Below, piece after piece: positions 32,525 through 44,993 of a stretch of 45,596 nucleotides of DNA. Source of the stretch: a virus (Duplodnaviria; Heunggongvirae; Uroviricota; Caudoviricetes); IMG/VR virus record IMGVR_UViG_2778261121_000003, positions 1-45,596 of that record. The stretch is one strand, 5' to 3'. The stretch's first letter is position 1, and each line of letters opens with the position of its first letter. A model generated the notes under the pieces. That model saw nothing but the letters and a program-made list of their open reading frames with translations. It was not told the origin of the DNA and made no database searches. The translations under genes were made by a program, and so were the position numbers.

Positions 32525-32848
32525 ATGTCGAACGAGATGGCGGGCGTTACAACTGAGCAAGTTGAGCGTATAGCCGCGATCGTTGCTCGGGAGGTTGTTG
32601 GCAAATTAGGTAAAGAGCTACGTGAAGAAATTGGCCAGGAGGTCAACGATCAGCTGAAAACCTACTTTGGTGATATGACCCCGGCGCAACATAGTATTCA
32701 ACACTCCAACCTGGACAAACTCCTTAACCGGTTAGATTCCATCTCAAGTGGGTTCTTTGGCGGCATTGTTTCTAAAATAACGTCGTTCATTATTACCGCA
32801 CTGCTTTTGGGGTTAGCCGCGTATGGCGTAAAAAATGGACTGCAATAA
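32525..32848 (+). CDS. putative holin-like lysis protein (single C-terminal TM segment)
   Basis: Preferred start ATG 32525 with GGAGG SD; hydrophilic N-terminus and C-terminal hydrophobic helix FFGGIVSKITSFIITALLLGLAAYGV; first gene of the lysis block. Confidence 0.4.
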   Translation: MSNEMAGVTTEQVERIAAIVAREVVGKLGKELREEIGQEVNDQLKTYFGDMTPAQHSIQHSNLDKLLNRLDSISSGFFGGIVSKITSFIITALLLGLAAYGVKNGLQ

Positions 32849-32861
32849 CAGGAGATCAAGG

Positions 32862-33554
32862 ATGAAGACTCCGAGAGGCATTCGTAATAATAACCCCGGT
32901 AATCTTGATAAAGGATCACCGTGGCAAGGTCTGGTTGCGAATCCAGACGAACCGCGCTTTTGCACGTTTAAAGACCCTGTTTGGGGGATTCGTGCGCTGG
33001 CGGTGACTCTAATTACCTACCACGACAAACGTCGCGCAAAAGACGGCTCAAGTATCGATACCATTCGTGAAGTTATTGAACGTTGGGCACCGCCGAATGA
33101 AAACAACACTGACGCCTACATTAATGAGGTGTCTAAAGCCGTTGGTGTAACCGCAGACATGATCATCGATCTGCATGATTACGACATCCTTCGACCTTTG
33201 GTTGAGGCAATCATTCGCCACGAGAATGGTCGAGGTCCACTAAAAACGCTGAACACCTGGTATGCGACAGAAGTTATTGAGGAAGGCCTGCGTCGGGCTG
33301 GCGTCGTTAAGTCGGTGAAAACCGTGAAGGCTGTTCCTGTAACTAAAGAAACCGCAGGCGCAACTGTTACCGCAGGGATTGGTCTGGCGCAGCTTGCCGA
33401 TGTTATGCCGCAGGTTTCCGCTGCTATGGATAAGGCACAAGGCCATATCTCTAGCGGGGATACAGTACGCATCATCTTCGGTATTGCCACTATTGTTGTG
33501 GCCGGATTCATTGCCTGGTCGCAGGTAAGAAAACACCAGAAAGGGATGGTTTAA
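32862..33554 (+). CDS. putative endolysin / peptidoglycan hydrolase (family not recognised) with C-terminal membrane anchor
   Basis: Start ATG 32862 with GGAG SD; located between the holin-like gene and spanins; C-terminal hydrophobic helix IIFGIATIVVAGFIAWSQV; catalytic family not identifiable by eye. Confidence 0.4.
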   Translation: MKTPRGIRNNNPGNLDKGSPWQGLVANPDEPRFCTFKDPVWGIRALAVTLITYHDKRRAKDGSSIDTIREVIERWAPPNENNTDAYINEVSKAVGVTADMIIDLHDYDILRPLVEAIIRHENGRGPLKTLNTWYATEVIEEGLRRAGVVKSVKTVKAVPVTKETAGATVTAGIGLAQLADVMPQVSAAMDKAQGHISSGDTVRIIFGIATIVVAGFIAWSQVRKHQKGMV

Positions 33555-37106: not shown

Positions 37107-38447
37107 ATGACCGAACTTTGCCATACAGGACGCGGGCTGTCCGAAGAGTTTGATGAAGATTTCCAGAACAGATTGACGGCATATTTTTGTCGTGATCACG
37201 AGTTTCTTACTCGTGCGGGAGATCTGGTTGTGCCTAGCCAATTTGCCAATGCGGCCAATGCCATATTGGTTAATATGGTTTCGGGCTATTACCGTATGTA
37301 CAAGAGCGCGCCCTCTTCATCTGCAATTCTGGATATGCTTAAGCGTGCGAAACGCGATAAGACTATCCGTGAGGAACTATTCGCCGATGTTGTTGCTGCG
37401 TTTAAGCGCATCCTTGCAGAAAAATTGTCCGATACCTCGTACATGGTTGACCAGGTATCAACCTTCGCAAAAAGCGTAGCGTTTGATGATGCTCTGATTA
37501 AGGCTGCTGAACTGAAAGAGAAGGGCGACTTTCAGGGGGCGATGGCAATCATGGCCAAGGTTCAGCAGATTGGATCGAACGAAGCGACCGGAATCTATGA
37601 CTACTACACCTCCGCAAGTGAGCGATTGAAAGCGCGTGAATATGAGGCTTCAGAGGAGTATGTGCCAAACAGCATTACAACTGGACTCCCTCTGCTCGAT
37701 AGGTTGCTGTACCAAAAAGGCTGGGCGAAGCGTGAAATGGTGCTCTTCATGGGGTTCGCTAAATCCGGTAAATCGACCGCAATGGGTGAGTTTTCCATAA
37801 ACGCAACGCTTGCTGGCTACAATGTTCTGTATCTCTCGCTGGAGGTTCACACCAACATTTTGTCCGATCGTTTTGATGCAAGATTGTCGGAGACGGAAAT
37901 GTCCAAGCTGGTGGAACGGCGCGATGAAGTTCATCGTAAGTTGGCAGAGTTGGGAGCCACGAAGGGGATTGGTAGTTTGTGGGTTGTTGAGCGTCCGTCA
38001 GGAAGTATGTCACCGGCAGATCTGGACCGTATGCTTAACAGCATGAAAGCCAATGGCATGGTGCCTGACATGGTTGTTGTCGACTACGCAGATTTGATGC
38101 GTGCCAGTTATGACCTTCGTGATGATCGCGCCAATATTCGTAGTATCTACACCGATTTACGTGCTCTTTATGACAAACATAACGTTGCTGGGATCACGGC
38201 ATCGCAGACAAACCGTGAAGGTGGCGCGTCAGAAGTTGCCACAATGATGCACGCTGCCGACAACATCGAAAAAGTACGTATTGCTGACCTGGTAATAACG
38301 ATCAACAAAACCGAAGAAGAAGAAGCGAAAGGAGAGGCTCGTCTCTACTTTGCTGGTTCGCGTAACCAGCAGGGAGGGATCAGCATTCGCGTTAAACAAA
38401 ACCTCGAACAAATGCGCTTCATTGAGCGAATCTTAGACGTTACCTAA
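37107..38447 (+). CDS. DnaB-like replicative DNA helicase
   Basis: 446 aa; Walker A GFAKSGKST and RecA-like C-terminal domain after an N-terminal helical domain. Confidence 0.8.
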   Translation: MTELCHTGRGLSEEFDEDFQNRLTAYFCRDHEFLTRAGDLVVPSQFANAANAILVNMVSGYYRMYKSAPSSSAILDMLKRAKRDKTIREELFADVVAAFKRILAEKLSDTSYMVDQVSTFAKSVAFDDALIKAAELKEKGDFQGAMAIMAKVQQIGSNEATGIYDYYTSASERLKAREYEASEEYVPNSITTGLPLLDRLLYQKGWAKREMVLFMGFAKSGKSTAMGEFSINATLAGYNVLYLSLEVHTNILSDRFDARLSETEMSKLVERRDEVHRKLAELGATKGIGSLWVVERPSGSMSPADLDRMLNSMKANGMVPDMVVVDYADLMRASYDLRDDRANIRSIYTDLRALYDKHNVAGITASQTNREGGASEVATMMHAADNIEKVRIADLVITINKTEEEEAKGEARLYFAGSRNQQGGISIRVKQNLEQMRFIERILDVT

Positions 38448-39785: not shown

Positions 39786-40568
39786 ATGAAAGACGAAATT
39801 CAGAAATTAGCCTGCGACATCATTGATAAAACTGGTTTAGAAATCAGCGAGAGCAATCGACTAGACATCATTGAAAAAGCGGTAAAAACAGCAATGGATC
39901 ATATCGCCACTCGTTTGGTTGAGATCCCGCTACCAGGGCTACCTTATCTGAAAGTTGAGTTACACGTATGGGGTGAACCTTCTTGTGTAGGGCGTTCTGC
40001 ATTAGTTGTTTTTATTAGCAAAGAAAACCCGCTCAGTCTTAAAGTGCAGGTTGGTGCATGGATGGATGGCAAAGTGATCTACACAAATACCGTTTTTTGT
40101 GCGCCAAACGACAGTATTATTGAAGAGGCTATTCAGGAATCACTTCTAACTATGCATAGCTTAGTTTTGCTGGAAGACAAGCAAAACTACGAAGAGTACT
40201 TACGGTCGATAAAAGGTGAGAGAACATTGTCACTTAAAGCCGATTTCGTTACCCCGACAAACCTGTTGGAAGTCTTGCTTAATAAAGGGGCTAATGATGC
40301 CGTAAATGTAATCAGAGAGAGTGAGTATGCGTCTCTTTGCGACATGTGCAAAAGCCAGTTGGATCTGGTGCATATCGTTATTGATGCTGGGAAGGCATGT
40401 GATGGCGTAATGGCGGAATTTGCTGGGAAGATGGTCAGGATTGCTAACGAATTACCGATGATAGAGCAAGAGGCTAAATCATACGCCACCAATCATGTCA
40501 CAGAGCTTCTTGTCCCCTATCGATTAGAAAGCAATCAGCGCAAGATGATTAGCTGGGGAAGTTGGTAA
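39786..40568 (+). CDS. hypothetical protein
   Basis: 260-aa ORF with AGGAG SD; no recognisable motifs. Confidence 0.6.
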   Translation: MKDEIQKLACDIIDKTGLEISESNRLDIIEKAVKTAMDHIATRLVEIPLPGLPYLKVELHVWGEPSCVGRSALVVFISKENPLSLKVQVGAWMDGKVIYTNTVFCAPNDSIIEEAIQESLLTMHSLVLLEDKQNYEEYLRSIKGERTLSLKADFVTPTNLLEVLLNKGANDAVNVIRESEYASLCDMCKSQLDLVHIVIDAGKACDGVMAEFAGKMVRIANELPMIEQEAKSYATNHVTELLVPYRLESNQRKMISWGSW

Positions 40569-40624: not shown

Positions 40625-41107
40625 ATGGCGATTGTTGTGAAAGCTGATTTGTCAAAAATCCCCTCTATTTCAGGAAATAATGGTTATTCACTTCGTTGTG
40701 AGGAAGTAAAGATAAACGGTGAGTCGGCATATTGCAGCTACTCCGTTTGCCAGCACACCATTCTTGCCTTCAAAGAAAACCGTCTTCCTCGAACTTCATT
40801 CCAGTCGTGCGCAACCGCTATCAAAGCAGGCAAATGCAAGGCGTTAAAAATGATGGTTGAAGAGATTCGTAAAGGAGAATCTCTGTATTTCGAAGATATG
40901 ACCGCGCTCATTAAGGAGGTTGAAGAACGGAATAAACAAGCCAGAACTATAAAACGAAAACGTGACAGCGTAACGATTAATAGCATGGTTAAGAAGAGCG
41001 CCACATCACAAACAGCGATCACTGACGTGTATGCGGCGTTGCTTGAAGAAACAACAAAAGAAACACATGAGCAAATCGATCAACATATGGAGGCAAAACA
41101 ACAATGA
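40625..41107 (+). CDS. hypothetical protein (Cys-rich N-terminal region)
   Basis: 160-aa ORF; several Cys in the first 80 residues; no clear SD; overlaps the ligase start (ATGA). Confidence 0.5.
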   Translation: MAIVVKADLSKIPSISGNNGYSLRCEEVKINGESAYCSYSVCQHTILAFKENRLPRTSFQSCATAIKAGKCKALKMMVEEIRKGESLYFEDMTALIKEVEERNKQARTIKRKRDSVTINSMVKKSATSQTAITDVYAALLEETTKETHEQIDQHMEAKQQ

Positions 41108-42426
41108 AAAAGTTGATCGCACTTAAGCATAAGCTGGACGAAATGAAAGCTATGGGAACCAATGCAAAAAAAGAGGCATTGGCCAACATGGATGACTTCG
41201 AGCAAAGCATGGTTTCATTGATGCTCAACCCTTTCATCCGTTTTGGGGTAAAGAAATACAAAGTGGCAGAGCCGCTTAGTGAGTCCGTCCCAAGTGACGA
41301 AAAAGCCATTGATATACTGAATAAGCTGGCCTCTCGCGAGCTGACGGGGAACGCAGCAATAGTTGCTGTTGAGTCTATCGTGGCGTCAATGTGCGCCGAT
41401 GGGCAGGACGTCTTCCGTCGTTTCCTCTTAAAAGATCCGAAAGCTGGCGTTGGGATTAGCCTATGCAACAAGGTTTTTGAAAATCCCATTCCGAAATTCG
41501 AGGTGCAGCTGGCGTCACCGTATAAAGAAAAAGGCGACAAATACCCCTTCAAGCCAAATCCTAAAGCAAAATGGCCGATGATTGGCAGCCTTAAGCTCGA
41601 TGGTTTGCGAGTAATTTGCGAGGTTATTGTTGACGAAGAAGAGGTTAACTTCCTTTCTCGTACTGGTAATCCAATCACGTCTCTCGATCACCTAAAGCCA
41701 GCCATGCTCGAATTAGGCAAACTTTCAGGCCACAAACACATCTTCTTCGATGGTGAAGGAACAGCCGGTTCATTTAACCAGTCCGTATCTGCATTGCGCA
41801 AAAAGAACGTGCAGGCAATTGGCGCTATTTATCATGTTTTCGACTTCTTCCTACCGGAATGGCGGGCACAGGCTAAATCCAAAGAGTATGCAAAGACAGG
41901 TATGAAGCTGAAAGAGCGCCTGGCTATGCTCGTGGCGTTGTTCAAAAACGATCGCAGTGAAGACTACGCGCAAGACATTCACCTGCATCCGTTCTACATC
42001 ATCCATAGCCACGAAGACTTCATCGAACGCTTCATGAAACGCCTGGACGATAACGAAGAAGGGGAGATGGGCAAAGATCCGAACTCTGTTTACGAGTTTA
42101 AACGTACCCGCAGCTGGTGGAAGTTAAAAGACGAAGATTCAGAAGATGGTGAAATTATCGACTTTGAGCCGGGCGACCCGGACTCTGGTTTTGCCAACAC
42201 GCTTGGAAAAATTGTTATTCGCCTTGAAAACGGTGTGATTGTTCGTGCGAGCGGCATTAAGCATAAATATCTGGACGAGATCTGGAACAACAAAGAGAAG
42301 TACCGTGGTCGTATTGTTGAGGTTCATTGTCACGAGAAAACACCGGATGGCAGCTTACGCCACCCACGACTGAAATGGCCGCGTTGCTTACGCGATACAG
42401 AAGATCGAATCGGAGATAAAGAATGA
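41104..42426 (+). CDS. ATP-dependent DNA ligase
   Basis: 440 aa; adenylation motif I KLDGLR (IGSLKLDGLRVICEV). Confidence 0.85.
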   Translation: MKKLIALKHKLDEMKAMGTNAKKEALANMDDFEQSMVSLMLNPFIRFGVKKYKVAEPLSESVPSDEKAIDILNKLASRELTGNAAIVAVESIVASMCADGQDVFRRFLLKDPKAGVGISLCNKVFENPIPKFEVQLASPYKEKGDKYPFKPNPKAKWPMIGSLKLDGLRVICEVIVDEEEVNFLSRTGNPITSLDHLKPAMLELGKLSGHKHIFFDGEGTAGSFNQSVSALRKKNVQAIGAIYHVFDFFLPEWRAQAKSKEYAKTGMKLKERLAMLVALFKNDRSEDYAQDIHLHPFYIIHSHEDFIERFMKRLDDNEEGEMGKDPNSVYEFKRTRSWWKLKDEDSEDGEIIDFEPGDPDSGFANTLGKIVIRLENGVIVRASGIKHKYLDEIWNNKEKYRGRIVEVHCHEKTPDGSLRHPRLKWPRCLRDTEDRIGDKE

Positions 42427-42602
42427 TGCTCGGCTGGATGATTGCATTTTTAGCGGTTGGTTTTTTACTCGGTATTGTGGTGATGTCCAGTTGCATCAAT
42501 GACTATATTAAAAGCGGTGTTATAGAACGACGCGGTCGTATTTATCGCATTGTAGAAATAACCCACACAGTGAAGGAGATTAAGGATGATCGTATTAAGT
42601 AA
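42423..42602 (+). CDS. small single-pass membrane protein (paralog family member 1)
   Basis: 59-aa ORF not in the track; start overlaps the ligase stop (ATGA); N-terminal TM (WMIAFLAVGFLLGIVVM) then basic tail RGRIYRIVEITHTVKE. Confidence 0.45.
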   Translation: MMLGWMIAFLAVGFLLGIVVMSSCINDYIKSGVIERRGRIYRIVEITHTVKEIKDDRIK

Positions 42603-42801
42603 GCGGGAGAAGGAAACGCTTCATGAAATCAGTAAGTGGCCGGAGTTCCCTGAGTACTGGAAGCCTAAAACGCGGGCTAAGTTAGAGCGTTTAGGGTTGG
42701 TTGCAAACGTTTCTGAAACGTGGTGCTCGGCCAACTACCAGTTAACTGATAAAGGGAAAGTATTGCTACAGCAATTAGTAGAATCAGGAGTGTTAAAATG
42801 A
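42586..42801 (+). CDS. hypothetical small protein
   Basis: 71-aa ORF overlapping its neighbours; no recognisable motifs. Confidence 0.5.
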   Translation: MIVLSKREKETLHEISKWPEFPEYWKPKTRAKLERLGLVANVSETWCSANYQLTDKGKVLLQQLVESGVLK

Positions 42802-42950
42802 TTCCATACATCTCATTAGCTTTTATGGGTGGCTTCCTTATCGGCTTCGGCATCTGTCGTGATTTAATTAAGCAGGAACTTAAAACCAAAACACTGTGCA
42901 TCGGAAAGCGCGTGTATCGGGTAGTTCATGAAACAAAGGTTAGAAAATGA
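42798..42950 (+). CDS. small single-pass membrane protein (paralog family member 2)
   Basis: 50-aa ORF not in the track; AGGAG SD; ATGA overlap with the upstream stop; TM (ISLAFMGGFLIGFGI) then GKRVYRVVHETKVRK, similar to the tail of member 1. Confidence 0.45.
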   Translation: MIPYISLAFMGGFLIGFGICRDLIKQELKTKTLCIGKRVYRVVHETKVRK

Positions 42951-43237
42951 GCAATTTAACTTCTTTGGAATGGTGGTTGGCCACCTATTTCTTAGCGGCC
43001 GGAGTCGCATTCGCCTTTTACGTAGGTCAGTTAGTCGTAAAACTGCTGCTGATTAAATTTGCCAGTCATAAACGTATCGATGATGGTCTGTGGCGTCTTG
43101 GCACCCTGGTGGAAACTCGCTACGGGCAACTTAAGGAGAACGAAACCATTACTATCCAAGCGAAACGGTTCACTGCGACCATCACAAGAACACCTAGTCG
43201 TAGAGTGGGCTTGATCAAAAAAGTCACAACCGAATAA
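42947..43237 (+). CDS. membrane protein (possible third paralog)
   Basis: 96 aa; N-terminal TM (WWLATYFLAAGVAFAFYVGQLVV); ATGA overlap with the upstream ORF. Confidence 0.55.
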   Translation: MSNLTSLEWWLATYFLAAGVAFAFYVGQLVVKLLLIKFASHKRIDDGLWRLGTLVETRYGQLKENETITIQAKRFTATITRTPSRRVGLIKKVTTE

Positions 43238-43245
43238 AAACATAT

Positions 43246-43268
43246 CAATAAGTATTTACTTACTTATC
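43246..43268 (+). promoter_or_regulatory. conserved intergenic motif (CAATAAGTATTTACTTACTTATC)
   Basis: Motif-family member at the start of the long noncoding/tRNA region; candidate promoter for that region. Confidence 0.35.
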
Positions 43269-44012
43269 TTTTGTGTATAAGATGACTTTGTTTTCGTTGA
43301 GACGCGACTGTTTGAACTTAAATACAAGTGCAAACGAAGAAGTCTATCTGGCAGTAGCCTAATAAGCCAAACACCAGCGAGGTCAGTTTCCAGCCTCGTT
43401 ACCGAAATGGGACACACTGAGCGAGTGTGATTGCAGAACGCAGGAGGGAACATGAGTGTTCCCTCCGATGAAGTAACGGAATGGGCGGTCGGTATATTTT
43501 CAACTCCATATGACTCTCGGATTCTTAGCCACTGACCGCCCATCCTGTTACGTCATTTTGTTCAATTATGTCGTTTATACTGGGTTAAAAGCGGCGACGT
43601 AGCCCGGCTGGTATGGTTAGCCAGCACACAACGTTGAGGCCATTACATTTTTATCAATTCTAAGGTTCTATTCACAGAGATACCGGCGAGCGTTGATATG
43701 TAACATGTTGGGCAAACATTCAATCGGAGTAGTGGCCTCAACGTTGTGAAGACAGGATTGTTGTGTAGGTTTAACCACTGTTGCCATTGGTGCCTGTTTT
43801 CACAACAAATGATTCCATACATCATATTGTATAAATTACAAAGTAGGTGCTGTCCTCAGAAACATCATCTACTTAAAGATTTAGCCTTCTATTGAGCGAA
43901 GTCGAAAGCGTCTGGCACTAACGTAAAGTGCAAGTAGCAGTGCGTTTCCTGGCAGAAACTAACACCGCCGCGATTGGCACTGTTGAGTAATAAATACTGG
44001 CTGTGCCGAATT

Positions 44013-44087
44013 GATGGTGTAGCTCAGCGGTAGAGCAGTTGGCTGTTAACCAACTGGTCGGTGGTTCGAATCCACCCACCATCGCCA
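44013..44087 (+). tRNA. tRNA-Asn (anticodon GTT)
   Basis: Manual cloverleaf: acceptor GATGGTG/CACCATC, anticodon stem GTTGG/CCAAC with loop CTGTTAA, T-arm GGTGG-TTCGAAT-CCACC, encoded CCA. Confidence 0.8.
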
Positions 44088-44092
44088 ATTTA

Positions 44093-44179
44093 GGGGAGTT
44101 AGTCCGTAGAGGTAGCGGTGTAGACTGTAAATCTACTGTCATGGCGACTCGGGTGGTTCGACTCCATCACTCCCCACCA
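44093..44179 (+). tRNA. tRNA-Tyr (anticodon GTA), long variable arm
   Basis: Manual cloverleaf: acceptor GGGGAGT/ACTCCCC, anticodon stem GTAGA/TCTAC with loop CTGTAAA, long variable arm, T-arm GGTGG-TTCGACT-CCATC, encoded CCA. Confidence 0.75.
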
Positions 44180-44183
44180 AATT

Positions 44184-44259
44184 GCCGGTTTAGCTCAGTT
44201 GGTAGAGCAGTCGCTTTGTAAGCGAATGGCCAGCGGTTCAAGTCCGTTAACCGGCACCA
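44184..44259 (+). tRNA. tRNA-Thr (anticodon TGT)
   Basis: Manual cloverleaf: acceptor GCCGGTT/AACCGGC, D-arm GCTC...GAGC, anticodon loop TTTGTAA, T-arm AGCGG-TTCAAGT-CCGTT, encoded CCA. Confidence 0.75.
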
Positions 44260-44751
44260 ACATAATATTGAGAACATTGGCGTAACGGGGTCATATCCCA
44301 ATCTATGAATAAATGTTGCGTTGCAGCGTGACAACCAGTGTTCTCAACATTGTGGTGAATGCACAGGCTGATGTGCCGCAACTACAGTAGTGCGCGCTTT
44401 GCGGGGCTTGCTACAACCCTGTGTCGGAGATCAGCACCGACCATCACAATTTGGCTCTCTTGCAACAGCATAACGCTGAAATATGTCCAACCTGGTGCGG
44501 CCTGTTCACCCGCCGTTAGCTCCACGAAACGGAGCGCACAACAGGAAAGAGCATTGAGAACCGCCGAGACTGCCCTGTTTGAAGCGTAAGTCCGTGCAAA
44601 CGTCATACAGTGCTCTTTTCGTTGTGGTTGATGCGCAGACTGATGCGCGGAAAGAAATGCCCCAGCGACACACGAGGCGAGTTCACACACTGCATTGCAG
44701 TCAGTAGCCGGGGTCGCTAAGCCGGAGTTCAGTACCGGTAACCACAACAAT

Positions 44752-44838
44752 TGGAGAGTAGGGAGCATGGTGCTCAAGCGGTCTTGAAAACCGTCCCATT
44801 GCGCAAGCGATGATGGTTCGATTCCATTACTCTCCGCC
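44752..44838 (+). tRNA. tRNA-Ser (anticodon TGA), long variable arm
   Basis: Manual cloverleaf: acceptor GGAGAGT/ACTCTCC, anticodon stem GCGGT/ACCGT with loop CTTGAAA, long variable arm, T-arm GATGG-TTCGATT-CCATT, encoded CCA. Confidence 0.75.
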
Positions 44839-44993
44839 AGACACAGCGTTGAGCGGTTTGGCCTTTTAATCACCCAGATTAAGACTCCGCTAACATAAAC
44901 CAGACCGCTCAACGCTGTGATAGACAATTACGTCAGACTTTCTTAACCATAGCTTGATAACATCCTAGCAACACTTTTTTCATCGCAAAATTC

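What the first reader, a model, noticed from the sequence alone, without database searches (positions are those of the whole stretch)
42423..43237. Tandem family of small single-pass membrane proteins translationally coupled to the DNA ligase gene
Two unannotated ORFs (42423-42602, 59 aa; 42798-42950, 50 aa) share an architecture: N-terminal TM helix, a Cys, then a basic tail with similar sequence (RGRIYRIVEITHTVKE versus GKRVYRVVHETKVRK). A third, longer TM protein (42947-43237) ends with a loosely similar tail. All starts overlap upstream stops (ATGA), implying co-expression with the ligase. Possible roles include membrane remodelling, superinfection exclusion or lysis timing.
Basis: seen in the sequence. 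Interest (0 to 1): 0.45.

Follow-up and report, generated by a model that had tools for sequence, protein, structure and literature searches.

The report
Paralogous small membrane proteins after ligase
Four tiny genes packed directly behind the DNA ligase gene of an SSU5-type phage-plasmid are real, conserved genes, and two of them are sister copies of one small membrane-protein family; their job is still unknown, and they look like dispensable accessory genes of the lytic programme, not a new kind of system.

Summary
The window is an SSU5/pHCM2/pMT1-type phage-plasmid, 98% identical to Escherichia phage Cyrano. The reported ORFs exist as described. A is 42423-42602, C is 42798-42950 and D is 42947-43237.

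- **Real genes:** all four have their own Shine-Dalgarno site, overlap the neighbouring gene, and are under purifying selection (dN/dS about 0.08-0.2).
- **A and C are paralogs:** hhalign gives E 1e-5 over 49 gapless columns. Single-copy relatives in distant elements match both PHROG families equally well.
- **D is a separate family.** The shared Cys is not a conserved feature.
- **Ancestral layout:** ligase, then one A/C-family gene, then one D-family gene.
- **Topology:** by hydropathy and charge, A, C and D are single-pass proteins with the N-terminus outside and a basic tail in the cytoplasm. The A/C membrane helix carries a conserved GxxxG motif.
- **Expression:** they are silent in the Cyrano lysogen.
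- **Dispensability:** they are variably lost. A is missing from about 36% of Escherichia elements.
- **Location:** they lie about 9 kb from the lysis cassette.

No homolog has a known function. My best guess, at low confidence, is that they are accessory inner-membrane effectors of the lytic phase.

In passing, the conserved non-coding stretch just downstream (43285-43650) looks like an uncatalogued tmRNA-like RNA carrying the tag ANEEVYLAVA.

The parts
41104..42426 (+). ATP-dependent DNA ligase gene (440 aa). Its TGA stop overlaps the ATG of ORF A.
   Evidence: Matches Pfam PF01068 at E 6.6e-13. Annotated as DNA ligase in Cyrano and SSU5. dN/dS is about 0.02.
42423..42602 (+). ORF A, 59 aa, phrog_4381. 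Single-pass membrane protein: membrane helix at about residues 5-25 with G13xxxG17, then a basic tail carrying RRGRIYRIV-EIT. It is the A-type paralog of the A/C family.
   Evidence: ORF and ATGA overlap. GGAG Shine-Dalgarno site 7 nt upstream. Kyte-Doolittle 2.56. dN/dS 0.075-0.16. Matches phrog_4381 at E 2.6e-38. Ortholog alignment A1. AlphaFold2 gives a confident N-terminal helix and a low-confidence tail.
42586..42801 (+). ORF B, 71 aa, phrog_4054. Soluble and basic, probably a minimal winged helix-turn-helix protein. It starts 17 nt inside the end of A, so the conserved K-E..D-D end of A also encodes B's AAGGAG Shine-Dalgarno site and ATG.
   Evidence: ORF. AAGGAG site 7 nt upstream. No hydrophobic segment, maximum Kyte-Doolittle 0.33. 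32 of 71 columns invariant across 6 orthologs. Only sub-threshold winged-helix matches: HTH_45, SSO5209, HxlR PA1607, MarR and the Csa3 C-terminal domain. Cyrano annotates it as a putative transcriptional regulator.
42798..42950 (+). ORF C, 50 aa, phrog_6302. Single-pass membrane protein: MIPYI N-terminus, a membrane helix with GxxxG, and a tail with the invariant motif GKRVYRVVHET. It is the C-type paralog of the A/C family.
   Evidence: ORF and ATGA overlap with B. AGGAG Shine-Dalgarno site. Kyte-Doolittle 1.84 and tail net charge +7. dN/dS 0.14-0.23. Matches phrog_6302 at E 8e-37. Alignment A2. hhalign against A gives E 1e-5.
42947..43237 (+). ORF D, 96 aa, phrog_4507. Carries the spurious RefSeq name 'C-type natriuretic protein'. 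It has an N-terminal membrane helix, a cytoplasmic helix with the invariant motif KRIDDGLWRLG, and a predicted beta-hairpin (ETITIQ-AK-RFTATI). It is a separate family from A/C.
   Evidence: ORF and ATGA overlap with C. Kyte-Doolittle 2.00 and tail net charge +7. dN/dS 0.08-0.11. Matches phrog_4507 at E 2.2e-57. Alignments A6 and A7. AlphaFold2 gives a helix at 6-61 and strands at 67-71 and 76-80, mean pLDDT 63.7. No Pfam or NCBIfam match.

Best explanation
**What is shown.** ORFs A, C and D are genuine small inner-membrane proteins of an SSU5-type phage-plasmid. ORF B between them is a soluble protein that looks like a winged helix. All four are the last genes of the helicase-primase-ligase operon. 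Each is translated by coupling: it has its own Shine-Dalgarno site and its start overlaps the stop of the gene before it. They are therefore made only when the replication genes are switched on, that is in lytic development, and not in the plasmid or lysogenic state. A and C are duplicates of a single ancestral gene. The conserved core of the locus is one A/C-family gene followed by one D-family gene.

**What is inferred.**
- Each protein inserts with a very short N-terminus in the periplasm and a basic tail in the cytoplasm.
- The GxxxG motif in the A/C helix mediates helix-helix association, possibly with D.
- The short, strongly conserved cytoplasmic motifs (R-V/I-Y-R-V/I-V in A/C, KRIDDGLWRLG plus a hairpin in D) bind a target at the inner face of the membrane.

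**What I think it does.** The genes evolve several times faster than the ligase. They are repeatedly lost, duplicated or swapped for other small membrane proteins. They sit next to anti-defence and accessory genes in relatives. I therefore think they are accessory membrane effectors of the lytic phase. They would block or modify a host inner-membrane function, for example DNA entry by competing phages or cell division. I do not think they are core replication or lysis proteins. The target is unknown.
For: **Real genes**
- The four-gene cassette is present in SSU5, Y. pestis pMT1, Salmonella, Enterobacter, Citrobacter and Klebsiella elements.
- dN/dS is 0.075-0.23, and differences fall mostly at third codon positions.
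- Each ORF has a Shine-Dalgarno site 7 nt before its start.

**A and C are paralogs**
- Shuffle tests and hhalign support homology.
- In the joint alignment G13, G17, R39, Y41, R42 and T47 are invariant.
- A profile search of 1.84 billion representative proteins finds only 22 proteins, including intermediate forms.
- The single-copy protein P0073 matches phrog_6302 (E 1.2e-8) and phrog_4381 (E 4.3e-8) almost equally. It is 34% identical to A and 33% to C.

**Conserved module and coupling**
- In distant elements with 70-75% ligase identity, the order is ligase, then one or two A/C-family genes, then a D-family gene, always with overlapping starts and stops.

**Topology**
- Hydropathy and the positive-inside rule point to N-terminus out, tail in.
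- AlphaFold2 predicts N-terminal helices for A and D.

**Lytic-phase expression**
- CYRAN_36-39 read log2(FPKM+5) = 2.3-3.0 in LB lysogen cultures, where the floor is 2.32. They are absent from the list of prophage genes expressed in lysogeny (PMC9928086).
- The region is depleted of promoter-like sites (1 found against 9.4 expected), and the single site lies downstream of D.

**Accessory character**
- tblastn against PLSDB finds A in 532 records, C in 682 and D in 653. In Escherichia the counts are 139, 218 and 218.
- A is precisely deleted between two ATGAT repeats, and the result still has an ATGA junction.
- Some Klebsiella elements have D replaced by an unrelated 138-aa tail-anchored protein, phrog_34759.
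- At the same evolutionary distance the ligase is 70-75% identical, while A is 32-35%, C 45-54% and D 16-34%.
- Relatives carry Tad2-like, Acb2/Tad1-like, Lar and NinH genes just downstream.
Against: - No homolog has a known function in Pfam, NCBIfam, PHROGs, PADLOC or PDB sequences. The BFVD fold search found nothing at E <= 0.001. The effector role is therefore inferred from context alone.
- Translation has not been observed. The held supplements of a Y. pestis proteogenomic study contain no peptide from the pMT1 orthologs.
- Topology is predicted, not measured.
- AlphaFold2 confidence for the cytoplasmic tails is low (pLDDT about 58 for A and 39-62 for D). It does not confirm a shared tail structure.
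- The fixed position behind the ligase, inside the replication arm, fits a replication-linked role equally well.
- SSU5 already carries a gene annotated as the Cor exclusion protein elsewhere.
- Small membrane proteins generally evolve fast, so rapid divergence is weak evidence for a host-interaction role.
Confidence: 0.35

Rival explanations
1. Membrane tether or organiser for lytic DNA replication. A/C and D anchor replicating phage-plasmid DNA or the replisome and ligase to the inner membrane through their basic cytoplasmic tails. In the SSU5 clade, the winged-helix-like protein B would serve as a DNA-binding adaptor. This is functionally analogous to phi29 p16.7 and p1.
For: - The position immediately after the ligase, within the helicase-primase-ligase operon, is invariant across elements down to 70% ligase identity, and the coupling is retained.
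- The genes are silent in lysogeny, like the replication genes.
- The tails are basic, with net charge +3 to +7.
- B, which gives weak winged-helix matches, is embedded between the paralogs.
Against: - C and D persist where the ligase is deleted (L010, L012, L021).
- A is missing from about 36% of Escherichia elements, and D is swapped for another protein in some Klebsiella.
- B is absent from L014, L019 and L022.
- No DNA-binding domain or homology to p16.7 or p1 was detected.
- The proteins diverge far faster than the replication enzymes.
Confidence: 0.18
2. Lysis-timing proteins (holin, antiholin or a lysis regulator).
For: - Small single-pass proteins with charged C-termini resemble holins and antiholins in outline.
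- D gives a weak match to the holin family phrog_2359, at E 0.0097 and over the membrane segment only.
Against: - SSU5 has a complete lysis cassette elsewhere, next to the tail genes: putative holin SSU5_026, endolysin 027 and spanins 028-030.
- The window has its endolysin at 32835-33554, preceded by a 111-aa ORF, about 9 kb upstream.
- The A-D genes lie in the replication operon, not a late operon.
- The holin match is sub-threshold and confined to hydrophobic residues.
Confidence: 0.06
3. A function in the plasmid or lysogenic state: prophage-encoded superinfection exclusion, plasmid maintenance, or a toxin of the type I kind.
For: - Many temperate phages express small membrane exclusion proteins from the prophage (established knowledge, for example HK97 gp15 and P22 SieA).
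- Curing an SSU5-like Klebsiella plasmid increased plasmid uptake and phage burst, but no gene was assigned (PMC8969562).
Against: - In the Cyrano lysogen, CYRAN_37-39 are at or near the RNA-seq floor in LB, and they are not among the prophage genes expressed in lysogeny.
- No own promoter was found.
- There is no match to Hok or other toxin families, or to PADLOC defence models.
- The genes are deleted in many stably maintained plasmids.
Confidence: 0.08
4. The ORFs are not translated. On this view they are chance or relic reading frames, and their conservation reflects an RNA or DNA element.
For: There is no direct evidence of translation. No peptides were found in the one proteogenomic data set I could search.
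Against: - dN/dS is well below 1, with substitutions concentrated at third codon positions, in all four frames.
- The frames stay intact at 16-54% amino-acid identity in distant elements, and the hydrophobic and basic layout is retained.
- Each start has a Shine-Dalgarno site.
- Natural deletions preserve the frame and the coupling.
Confidence: 0.02

Closest known systems
PHROG families phrog_4381 (A), phrog_6302 (C), phrog_4507 (D) and phrog_4054 (B); RefSeq hypothetical proteins SSU5_045-048 and their pMT1 and pHCM2 orthologs
   Same: The window proteins are full-length members, at E 2.6e-38, 8e-37, 2.2e-57 and 1.7e-45. They sit in the same order behind the ligase.
   Different: All four families have unknown function. 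PHROGs keeps A and C as separate families. Here they are shown to be paralogs linked by single-copy intermediates.
Small phage inner-membrane exclusion proteins (T4 Imm, HK97 gp15, P22 SieA); comparison from my own knowledge
   Same: They are small, phage-encoded and anchored in the inner membrane. They are accessory and variable. T4 Imm is also made during lytic infection.
   Different: No sequence similarity was detected. HK97 gp15 and SieA are expressed from the prophage, whereas these genes are silent in the lysogen. An exclusion activity was not tested.
phi29 p16.7 and p1, membrane organisers of phage DNA replication; comparison from my own knowledge
   Same: They are small early membrane proteins encoded alongside replication genes. 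p16.7 has an N-terminal membrane helix and a cytoplasmic C-terminal part.
   Different: p16.7 is about 130 aa, with a coiled coil and a dimeric DNA-binding domain. A and C have tails of only 25-35 aa. No homology was detected. phi29 replicates by protein priming in a Gram-positive host.
Holins and antiholins
   Same: They share small size, one membrane helix and a charged C-terminal tail.
   Different: These genes are not next to the endolysin and spanin genes. They lie in a replication operon, not a late one. The only match is a sub-threshold one over the membrane segment, for D.
Type I toxins (Hok/Gef-like small membrane peptides)
   Same: They are about 50 aa, with a single helix and a polar tail.
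   Different: There is no Pfam match. There is no own promoter or evident antisense partner. The genes are translated by coupling within a long operon.

Membership tests
A/C small membrane-protein family (phrog_4381 + phrog_6302) | Full-length profile match to the family model. | tested here: met
   A matches phrog_4381 at E 2.6e-38 over residues 1-59. C matches phrog_6302 at E 8e-37 over residues 1-50.
A/C small membrane-protein family (phrog_4381 + phrog_6302) | A and C share common ancestry, that is, they form one family. | tested here: met
   hhalign gives 82% probability and E 1e-5 over 49 gapless columns. Compartment-preserving shuffles give p about 0.002. P0073 matches both PHROGs, at 1.2e-8 and 4.3e-8.
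A/C small membrane-protein family (phrog_4381 + phrog_6302) | D is a third member. | tested here: not met
   hhalign of D against A/C gives probability 0.5%, and 1.9% with distant members added. Tail shuffles give p 0.89-1.0.
A/C small membrane-protein family (phrog_4381 + phrog_6302) | Conserved GxxxG motif in the membrane helix and a R-[VI]-Y-[RK]-[VIL]-[VI] motif in the tail. | tested here: met
   G13, G17, R39, Y41 and R42 are invariant in 25 sequences. GxxxG is kept in most distant members I aligned; P0073 reads GxxxA.
Bacterial lipoprotein (possible lipobox around the Cys) | Basic N-terminal region, [LVI][ASTVI][GAS]C lipobox, and a conserved Cys. | tested here: not met
   A reads VMSSC but has no K or R before the helix. 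C reads FGIC. The Cys is absent from distant A-like proteins and varies within C orthologs.
Holin / lysis cassette | Adjacent to endolysin and spanin genes in a late operon. | tested here: not met
   The SSU5 lysis genes are SSU5_026-030, about 12 kb upstream. The window endolysin is at 32835-33554.
Holin / lysis cassette | Sequence membership in a holin family. | tested here: not met
   The only match is D to phrog_2359, at E 0.0097 over residues 6-34, which is the membrane segment. There are no Pfam holin matches.
Prophage-expressed superinfection exclusion protein | Expressed in the lysogen. | tested here: not met
   CYRAN_37-39 read log2(FPKM+5) = 2.32-3.0 in LB lysogen cultures, where the floor is 2.32.
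Prophage-expressed superinfection exclusion protein | Blocks infection or DNA entry by a second phage. | not testable with these tools
   This needs efficiency-of-plating or DNA-injection assays with strains that express A, C and D.
phi29 p16.7-like membrane replication organiser | N-terminal membrane anchor, and encoded among early replication genes. | tested here: met
   Hydropathy. Position directly after helicase, primase and ligase.
phi29 p16.7-like membrane replication organiser | A C-terminal DNA-binding domain, or sequence homology to p16.7. | tested here: not met
   No Pfam or PDB-sequence match. The tails are only 25-60 aa and their structure is predicted with low confidence.
Natriuretic peptide ('C-type natriuretic protein', the RefSeq name for D) | Match to the natriuretic peptide family. 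| tested here: not met
   No Pfam or NCBIfam match of any kind at E <= 1 supports the name. The name is carried by a 604-member cluster and appears to be propagated legacy annotation.
Winged helix-turn-helix DNA-binding proteins (ORF B) | Significant profile match to a winged-helix family. | tested here: inconclusive
   Only sub-threshold matches were found, but they agree with one another and all fall on residues about 31-66. They are HTH_45 (E 0.18), SSO5209 (0.013), the Csa3 C-terminal domain (0.0015), and PA1607 (HxlR-type) and MarR in PDB (0.4-1.1).
Type I toxin (Hok-like) | Family match, own promoter and an antisense RNA. | tested here: not met
   No Pfam match. No promoter-like site between 38500 and 43799. 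The starts are coupled to upstream stops.

The most novel reading that the evidence does not exclude
The conserved pair of one A/C-family protein and one D-family protein is a previously unrecognised two-component membrane module of SSU5-supergroup phage-plasmids, a group that includes Y. pestis pMT1 and S. Typhi pHCM2. It would assemble through its GxxxG helices and either tether lytic replication to the inner membrane or switch off a specific host membrane function during the change from plasmid to lytic growth. That would make it a new functional class of phage small membrane proteins.
Probability: 0.15. Interest if true: 0.55.

Novelty: new member of a known kind. Interest (0 to 1): 0.3.

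Why it matters
SSU5-type phage-plasmids are common in clinical Enterobacterales. The region matches 790 PLSDB plasmids, and the adjacent stretch matches 246 of 5426 complete E. coli genomes. The group includes the plague plasmid pMT1 and pHCM2-like Salmonella plasmids.

Small membrane proteins are the least understood part of phage genomes. Showing that these ORFs are real, that two PHROG families are one family, and that the conserved unit is an A/C-plus-D pair gives a defined and cheap target for deletion and interaction experiments.

The result is still incremental. It describes conserved hypothetical proteins of a familiar type without giving them a function.

The tmRNA-like RNA found in passing just downstream is, in my judgement, the more surprising lead from this region.

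Tried and rejected
- **Family searches.** Pfam, NCBIfam, PHROGs and PADLOC scans of A-D returned only unknown-function PHROGs and sub-threshold noise.
- **Solved structures.** PDB sequence searches with profiles of A/C, D and B returned nothing significant.
- **AlphaFold2 on A.** With the A/C alignment it gave one long helix with a low-confidence tail, so it neither supports nor excludes the beta-hairpin reading of the tail.
- **AlphaFold2 on D.** It gave a helix plus a hairpin at mean pLDDT 63.7. Foldseek of that model against BFVD found no match at E <= 0.001. I ran no further fold searches because the models are of low confidence.
- **D as a third paralog.** Rejected on hhalign and shuffle tests.
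- **The Cys as a lipobox or a conserved feature.** Rejected.
- **Literature.** Searches for the RefSeq accessions, the SSU5 locus tags and the 'C-type natriuretic protein' name found no paper.
- **Proteomics.** The Y. pestis proteogenomic small-ORF study (PMC8563848) has no peptide from the pMT1 orthologs in the text held. One supplement file is truncated.
- **Genome-collection scan.** A scan with the A/C motif confirmed only two Kluyvera loci, because confirmation uses sequence A alone.
- **Relatives outside SSU5-like elements.** None was found. The most distant hit, P0083, sits on a 669-bp contig with no usable context.
Full report
**What the window is.** The region is 98% identical to Escherichia phage Cyrano (the plasmid prophage of E. 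coli LF82) and 79% identical to Salmonella phage SSU5. It is therefore an SSU5/pHCM2/pMT1-type phage-plasmid. The finding lies at the end of the replication arm: helicase at 37107-38447, primase, two hypothetical genes, and the ligase at 41104-42426. A tRNA cluster follows at 44013-44839.

**Checking the observation.**
- There is a fourth ORF. B (42586-42801, 71 aa) starts 17 nt inside the end of A, and its stop is the one that C overlaps.
- The true layout is ligase-A-B-C-D, with overlaps of 4, 17, 4 and 4 nt.
- Every ORF has a Shine-Dalgarno sequence ending 7 nt before its ATG: GGAG, AAGGAG, AGGAG and AAGG.
- A, C and D each have one strongly hydrophobic N-terminal segment. None has a basic residue before it, and each has a net-positive tail. 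B has no hydrophobic segment.

**Are they genes?** Yes.
- The same four ORFs occur in SSU5 (SSU5_045-048), Y. pestis pMT1, and Salmonella, Enterobacter, Citrobacter and Klebsiella elements.
- Against orthologs at 69-79% nucleotide identity, dN/dS is 0.075-0.16 for A, 0.14-0.23 for C and 0.08-0.11 for D. Third-position changes dominate. For B, synonymous sites are saturated, with pN 0.20-0.25 against pS 0.78-0.86.
- In elements whose ligase is only 70-75% identical, the frames, the hydrophobic and basic layout and the overlapping starts all persist. This holds even where the start codon is GTG or TTG.

**Are A and C one family?** Yes.
- The pairwise score is 53, against 22 +/- 4.4 for shuffles. 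Shuffling the membrane segment and the tail separately gives p about 0.002, and three other ortholog pairs behave the same way.
- Profile-profile comparison gives 82% probability and E 1e-5 over 49 gapless columns.
- In the joint alignment G13, G17, R39, Y41, R42 and T47 are invariant. G13 and G17 form a GxxxG motif in the helix.
- A profile of both families, run against 1.84 billion representative proteins, finds only 22 proteins, among them intermediate forms.
- Distant elements carry a single copy (P0073 or P0082) right after the ligase. P0073 matches the C and A PHROGs almost equally (1.2e-8 and 4.3e-8) and is 33-34% identical to each.
- The conserved K-E..D-D end of A coincides with B's Shine-Dalgarno site and start codon. 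That conservation may be owed to B and not to A.

**Is D a third member?** Not detectably.
- hhalign gives 0.5-1.9% probability and the tail shuffles are not significant.
- D is a family of its own, phrog_4507. It has an invariant KRIDDGLWRLG motif and a predicted C-terminal hairpin of low confidence.
- D-family genes follow the A/C-family gene in every lineage examined. The conserved unit is therefore an A/C-family gene plus a D-family gene.
- B occurs only in lineages that have both paralogs, and not in all of them: L014 has A, C and D without B.

**Expression.**
- In published LF82 RNA-seq (PMC9928086, Table S1), CYRAN_36-39 (ligase, B, C, D) read log2(FPKM+5) = 2.3-3.0 in LB lysogen cultures. 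The floor is 2.32. None is listed among the prophage genes expressed in lysogeny.
- They rise modestly in other conditions. There, B, C and D sit roughly 2-4 times above the ligase. Coupling to the ligase is therefore plausible, but strictly equal expression is not shown.
- A is not annotated in Cyrano, so there are no data for it.
- No sigma-70-like promoter lies between 38500 and 43799, where 9.4 would be expected by chance.

**Dispensability.**
- tblastn against 72,556 plasmids finds A in 532 records, C in 682 and D in 653. In Escherichia the counts are 139, 218 and 218.
- In E. coli and Shigella variants, A is deleted exactly between the ATGAT of its own start and that of B. This recreates an ATGA junction between the ligase and B.
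- One Klebsiella variant has lost the membrane helix of A through a 7-nt repeat.
- Others have lost most of the ligase, all of A and most of B in a single in-frame fusion, but keep C and D.
- Others again have a truncated C, with D replaced by an unrelated tail-anchored 138-aa protein.
- L021 lacks the ligase but keeps the A/C and D genes.
- The small proteins diverge much faster than the ligase.

**What they are not.**
- There are no significant matches in Pfam, NCBIfam, PADLOC or PDB sequences, and no fold match for D.
- The RefSeq name 'C-type natriuretic protein' has no support.
- The lysis cassette is elsewhere. In SSU5 it is the putative holin, endolysin and spanins SSU5_026-030, next to a gene annotated as the Cor exclusion protein. 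In the window the endolysin is at 32835-33554.

**Most likely mechanism.**
- Shown: coupled translation at the far end of the replication operon; single-pass architecture; paralogy of A and C; silence in lysogeny; accessory behaviour.
- Inferred: N-terminus out and tail in; helix-helix association through GxxxG; conserved cytoplasmic motifs that bind a target at the inner face of the membrane.
- I rank "accessory lytic-phase membrane effector" first (0.35). My reasons are the pattern of loss, duplication and replacement, the fast divergence, and the accessory and anti-defence genes nearby in relatives (Tad2-like, Acb2/Tad1-like, Lar).
- A replication tether analogous to phi29 p16.7 comes second (0.18).
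- A function in the lysogenic state (0.08) and lysis timing (0.06) are disfavoured.
- Untranslated ORFs are very unlikely (0.02).

**Novelty.** The ORFs are already catalogued as hypothetical proteins and unknown-function PHROGs. What is new here is:
- the evidence that they are genes;
- the merging of two PHROGs into one family;
- the ancestral A/C-plus-D layout;
- the natural deletion series.

This is a new, uncharacterised member of a familiar kind, small phage membrane proteins, and not a new kind of system.

**Found in passing: a tmRNA-like RNA.**
- *Conservation.* The non-coding stretch directly after D is strikingly conserved across the whole group.
- *Structure.* It folds into a structure supported by covariation: 90 pairs, 97.4% of cells paired against 34-45% when partners are slid, and 15 pairs with compensatory double changes against 4.7 +/- 1.6 in shuffles (0 of 500 shuffles reach 15). 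The caveat is that the structure was derived from the same seven sequences.
- *Tag.* It contains UGCAAACGA followed by exactly ten codons and then one or two stop codons. These read ANEEVYLAVA in the window, ANEDTYLAVA in SSU5 and pMT1, ANDNQYLAVA in Klebsiella, ANDTQYLAVA in L021 and L022, and ANDDVVLMAA in L015. From memory, the E. coli tmRNA tag is ANDENYALAA.
- *Not an ordinary ORF.* Indels of 1-2 nt just upstream show that this is not the end of a conventional ORF.
- *Standard tools.* Rfam gives only sub-threshold tmRNA matches. ARAGORN finds nothing at normal thresholds. I could not find a tRNA-like domain.
- *Cataloguing.* RefSeq annotates nothing there in 246 E. coli genomes. The 2014 exhaustive ssrA survey of RefSeq plasmids and viruses (PMC4131195) lists no such element.
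- This lead deserves an evaluation of its own.

Noticed in passing
window 43285-43650 (possibly to about 43745); tag-like frame 43330-43359 with stops at 43360-43365: A conserved, unannotated structured RNA candidate that resembles the mRNA-like part of a tmRNA.
- It contains UGCAAACGA followed by exactly 10 codons, ANEEVYLAVA, and two stops. The 10-codon frame is kept in all relatives: ANEDTYLAVA, ANDNQYLAVA, ANDTQYLAVA and ANDDVVLMAA.
- The stops lie in a hairpin loop.
- The consensus fold has 90 pairs, 15 with compensatory changes (0 of 500 shuffles reach this).
- Rfam gives only sub-threshold tmRNA matches. ARAGORN finds nothing at default settings. I found no tRNA-like domain.
- RefSeq does not annotate it, and it is not in the 2014 tmRNA survey of plasmids and phages.
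   Followed up: partly
window 43627-43642 and about 43727-43742: A conserved 15-16-nt inverted repeat, CACAACGTTGAGGCC ... GGCCTCAACGTTGTG, flanks a variable spacer of about 85 nt at the 3' side of the conserved RNA-like region. It could be a terminal stem of that RNA or a terminator-like element.
   Followed up: no
window 43252-43283: A near-invariant promoter-like sequence, GTATTTACTTACTTATC...TATAAGAT, lies immediately after the stop of D and before the conserved RNA-like region. The strict consensus scan did not report it.
   Followed up: no
L003 1600-1650; L011 2100-2245; L010 1803-2051; L009 2492-3059: A natural deletion series at the locus.
- L003: A removed precisely between two ATGAT repeats.
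- L011: in-frame loss of A's membrane helix through a GATGCTC repeat.
- L010: an in-frame fusion of the ligase N-terminus to the C-terminus of B that keeps the coupling to C.
- L009: the tail of C plus all of D replaced by a 138-aa tail-anchored protein, phrog_34759.

   Followed up: partly
window 42947-43237 and RefSeq orthologs: The product name 'C-type natriuretic protein' is attached to D orthologs across RefSeq, in a cluster of 604 member sequences. No Pfam or NCBIfam match supports it, so it is probably propagated legacy mis-annotation.
   Followed up: yes
L014 7212-7286; L019 9810-9885: Distant SSU5-like elements carry a tRNA with anticodon CTA, which ARAGORN labels 'tRNA-Pyl'. It is a candidate amber-suppressor tRNA, in the position where the window has tRNA-Asn.
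   Followed up: no
L015 9594-10381; L019 7962-8636 and 11703-12168; L021 and L022 9168-9689 and 10784-12130: In relatives, the region a few kb downstream of the A-D cluster holds anti-defence and accessory genes. L015 has Tad2-like and Acb2/Tad1-hairpin genes. L019 has NinH, Lar restriction alleviation and an ADP-ribosyltransferase. L021 and L022 have a Tad2-like gene and a HEPN-Toprim gene.
   Followed up: no
window 44753-44839: The tRNA-Ser (TGA) gene scores 44.6 bits against Rfam tRNA-Sec, just under the gathering score of 47. It is most likely an ordinary long-arm tRNA-Ser.
   Followed up: no
window 39786-40568 (ortholog of CYRAN_34): In LF82 RNA-seq, the hypothetical gene upstream of the ligase operon's distal part is expressed well above its neighbours. 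It reads about 44 normalised counts in LB and up to log2 8.5 in other conditions. This suggests it has its own promoter inside the replication arm.
   Followed up: no
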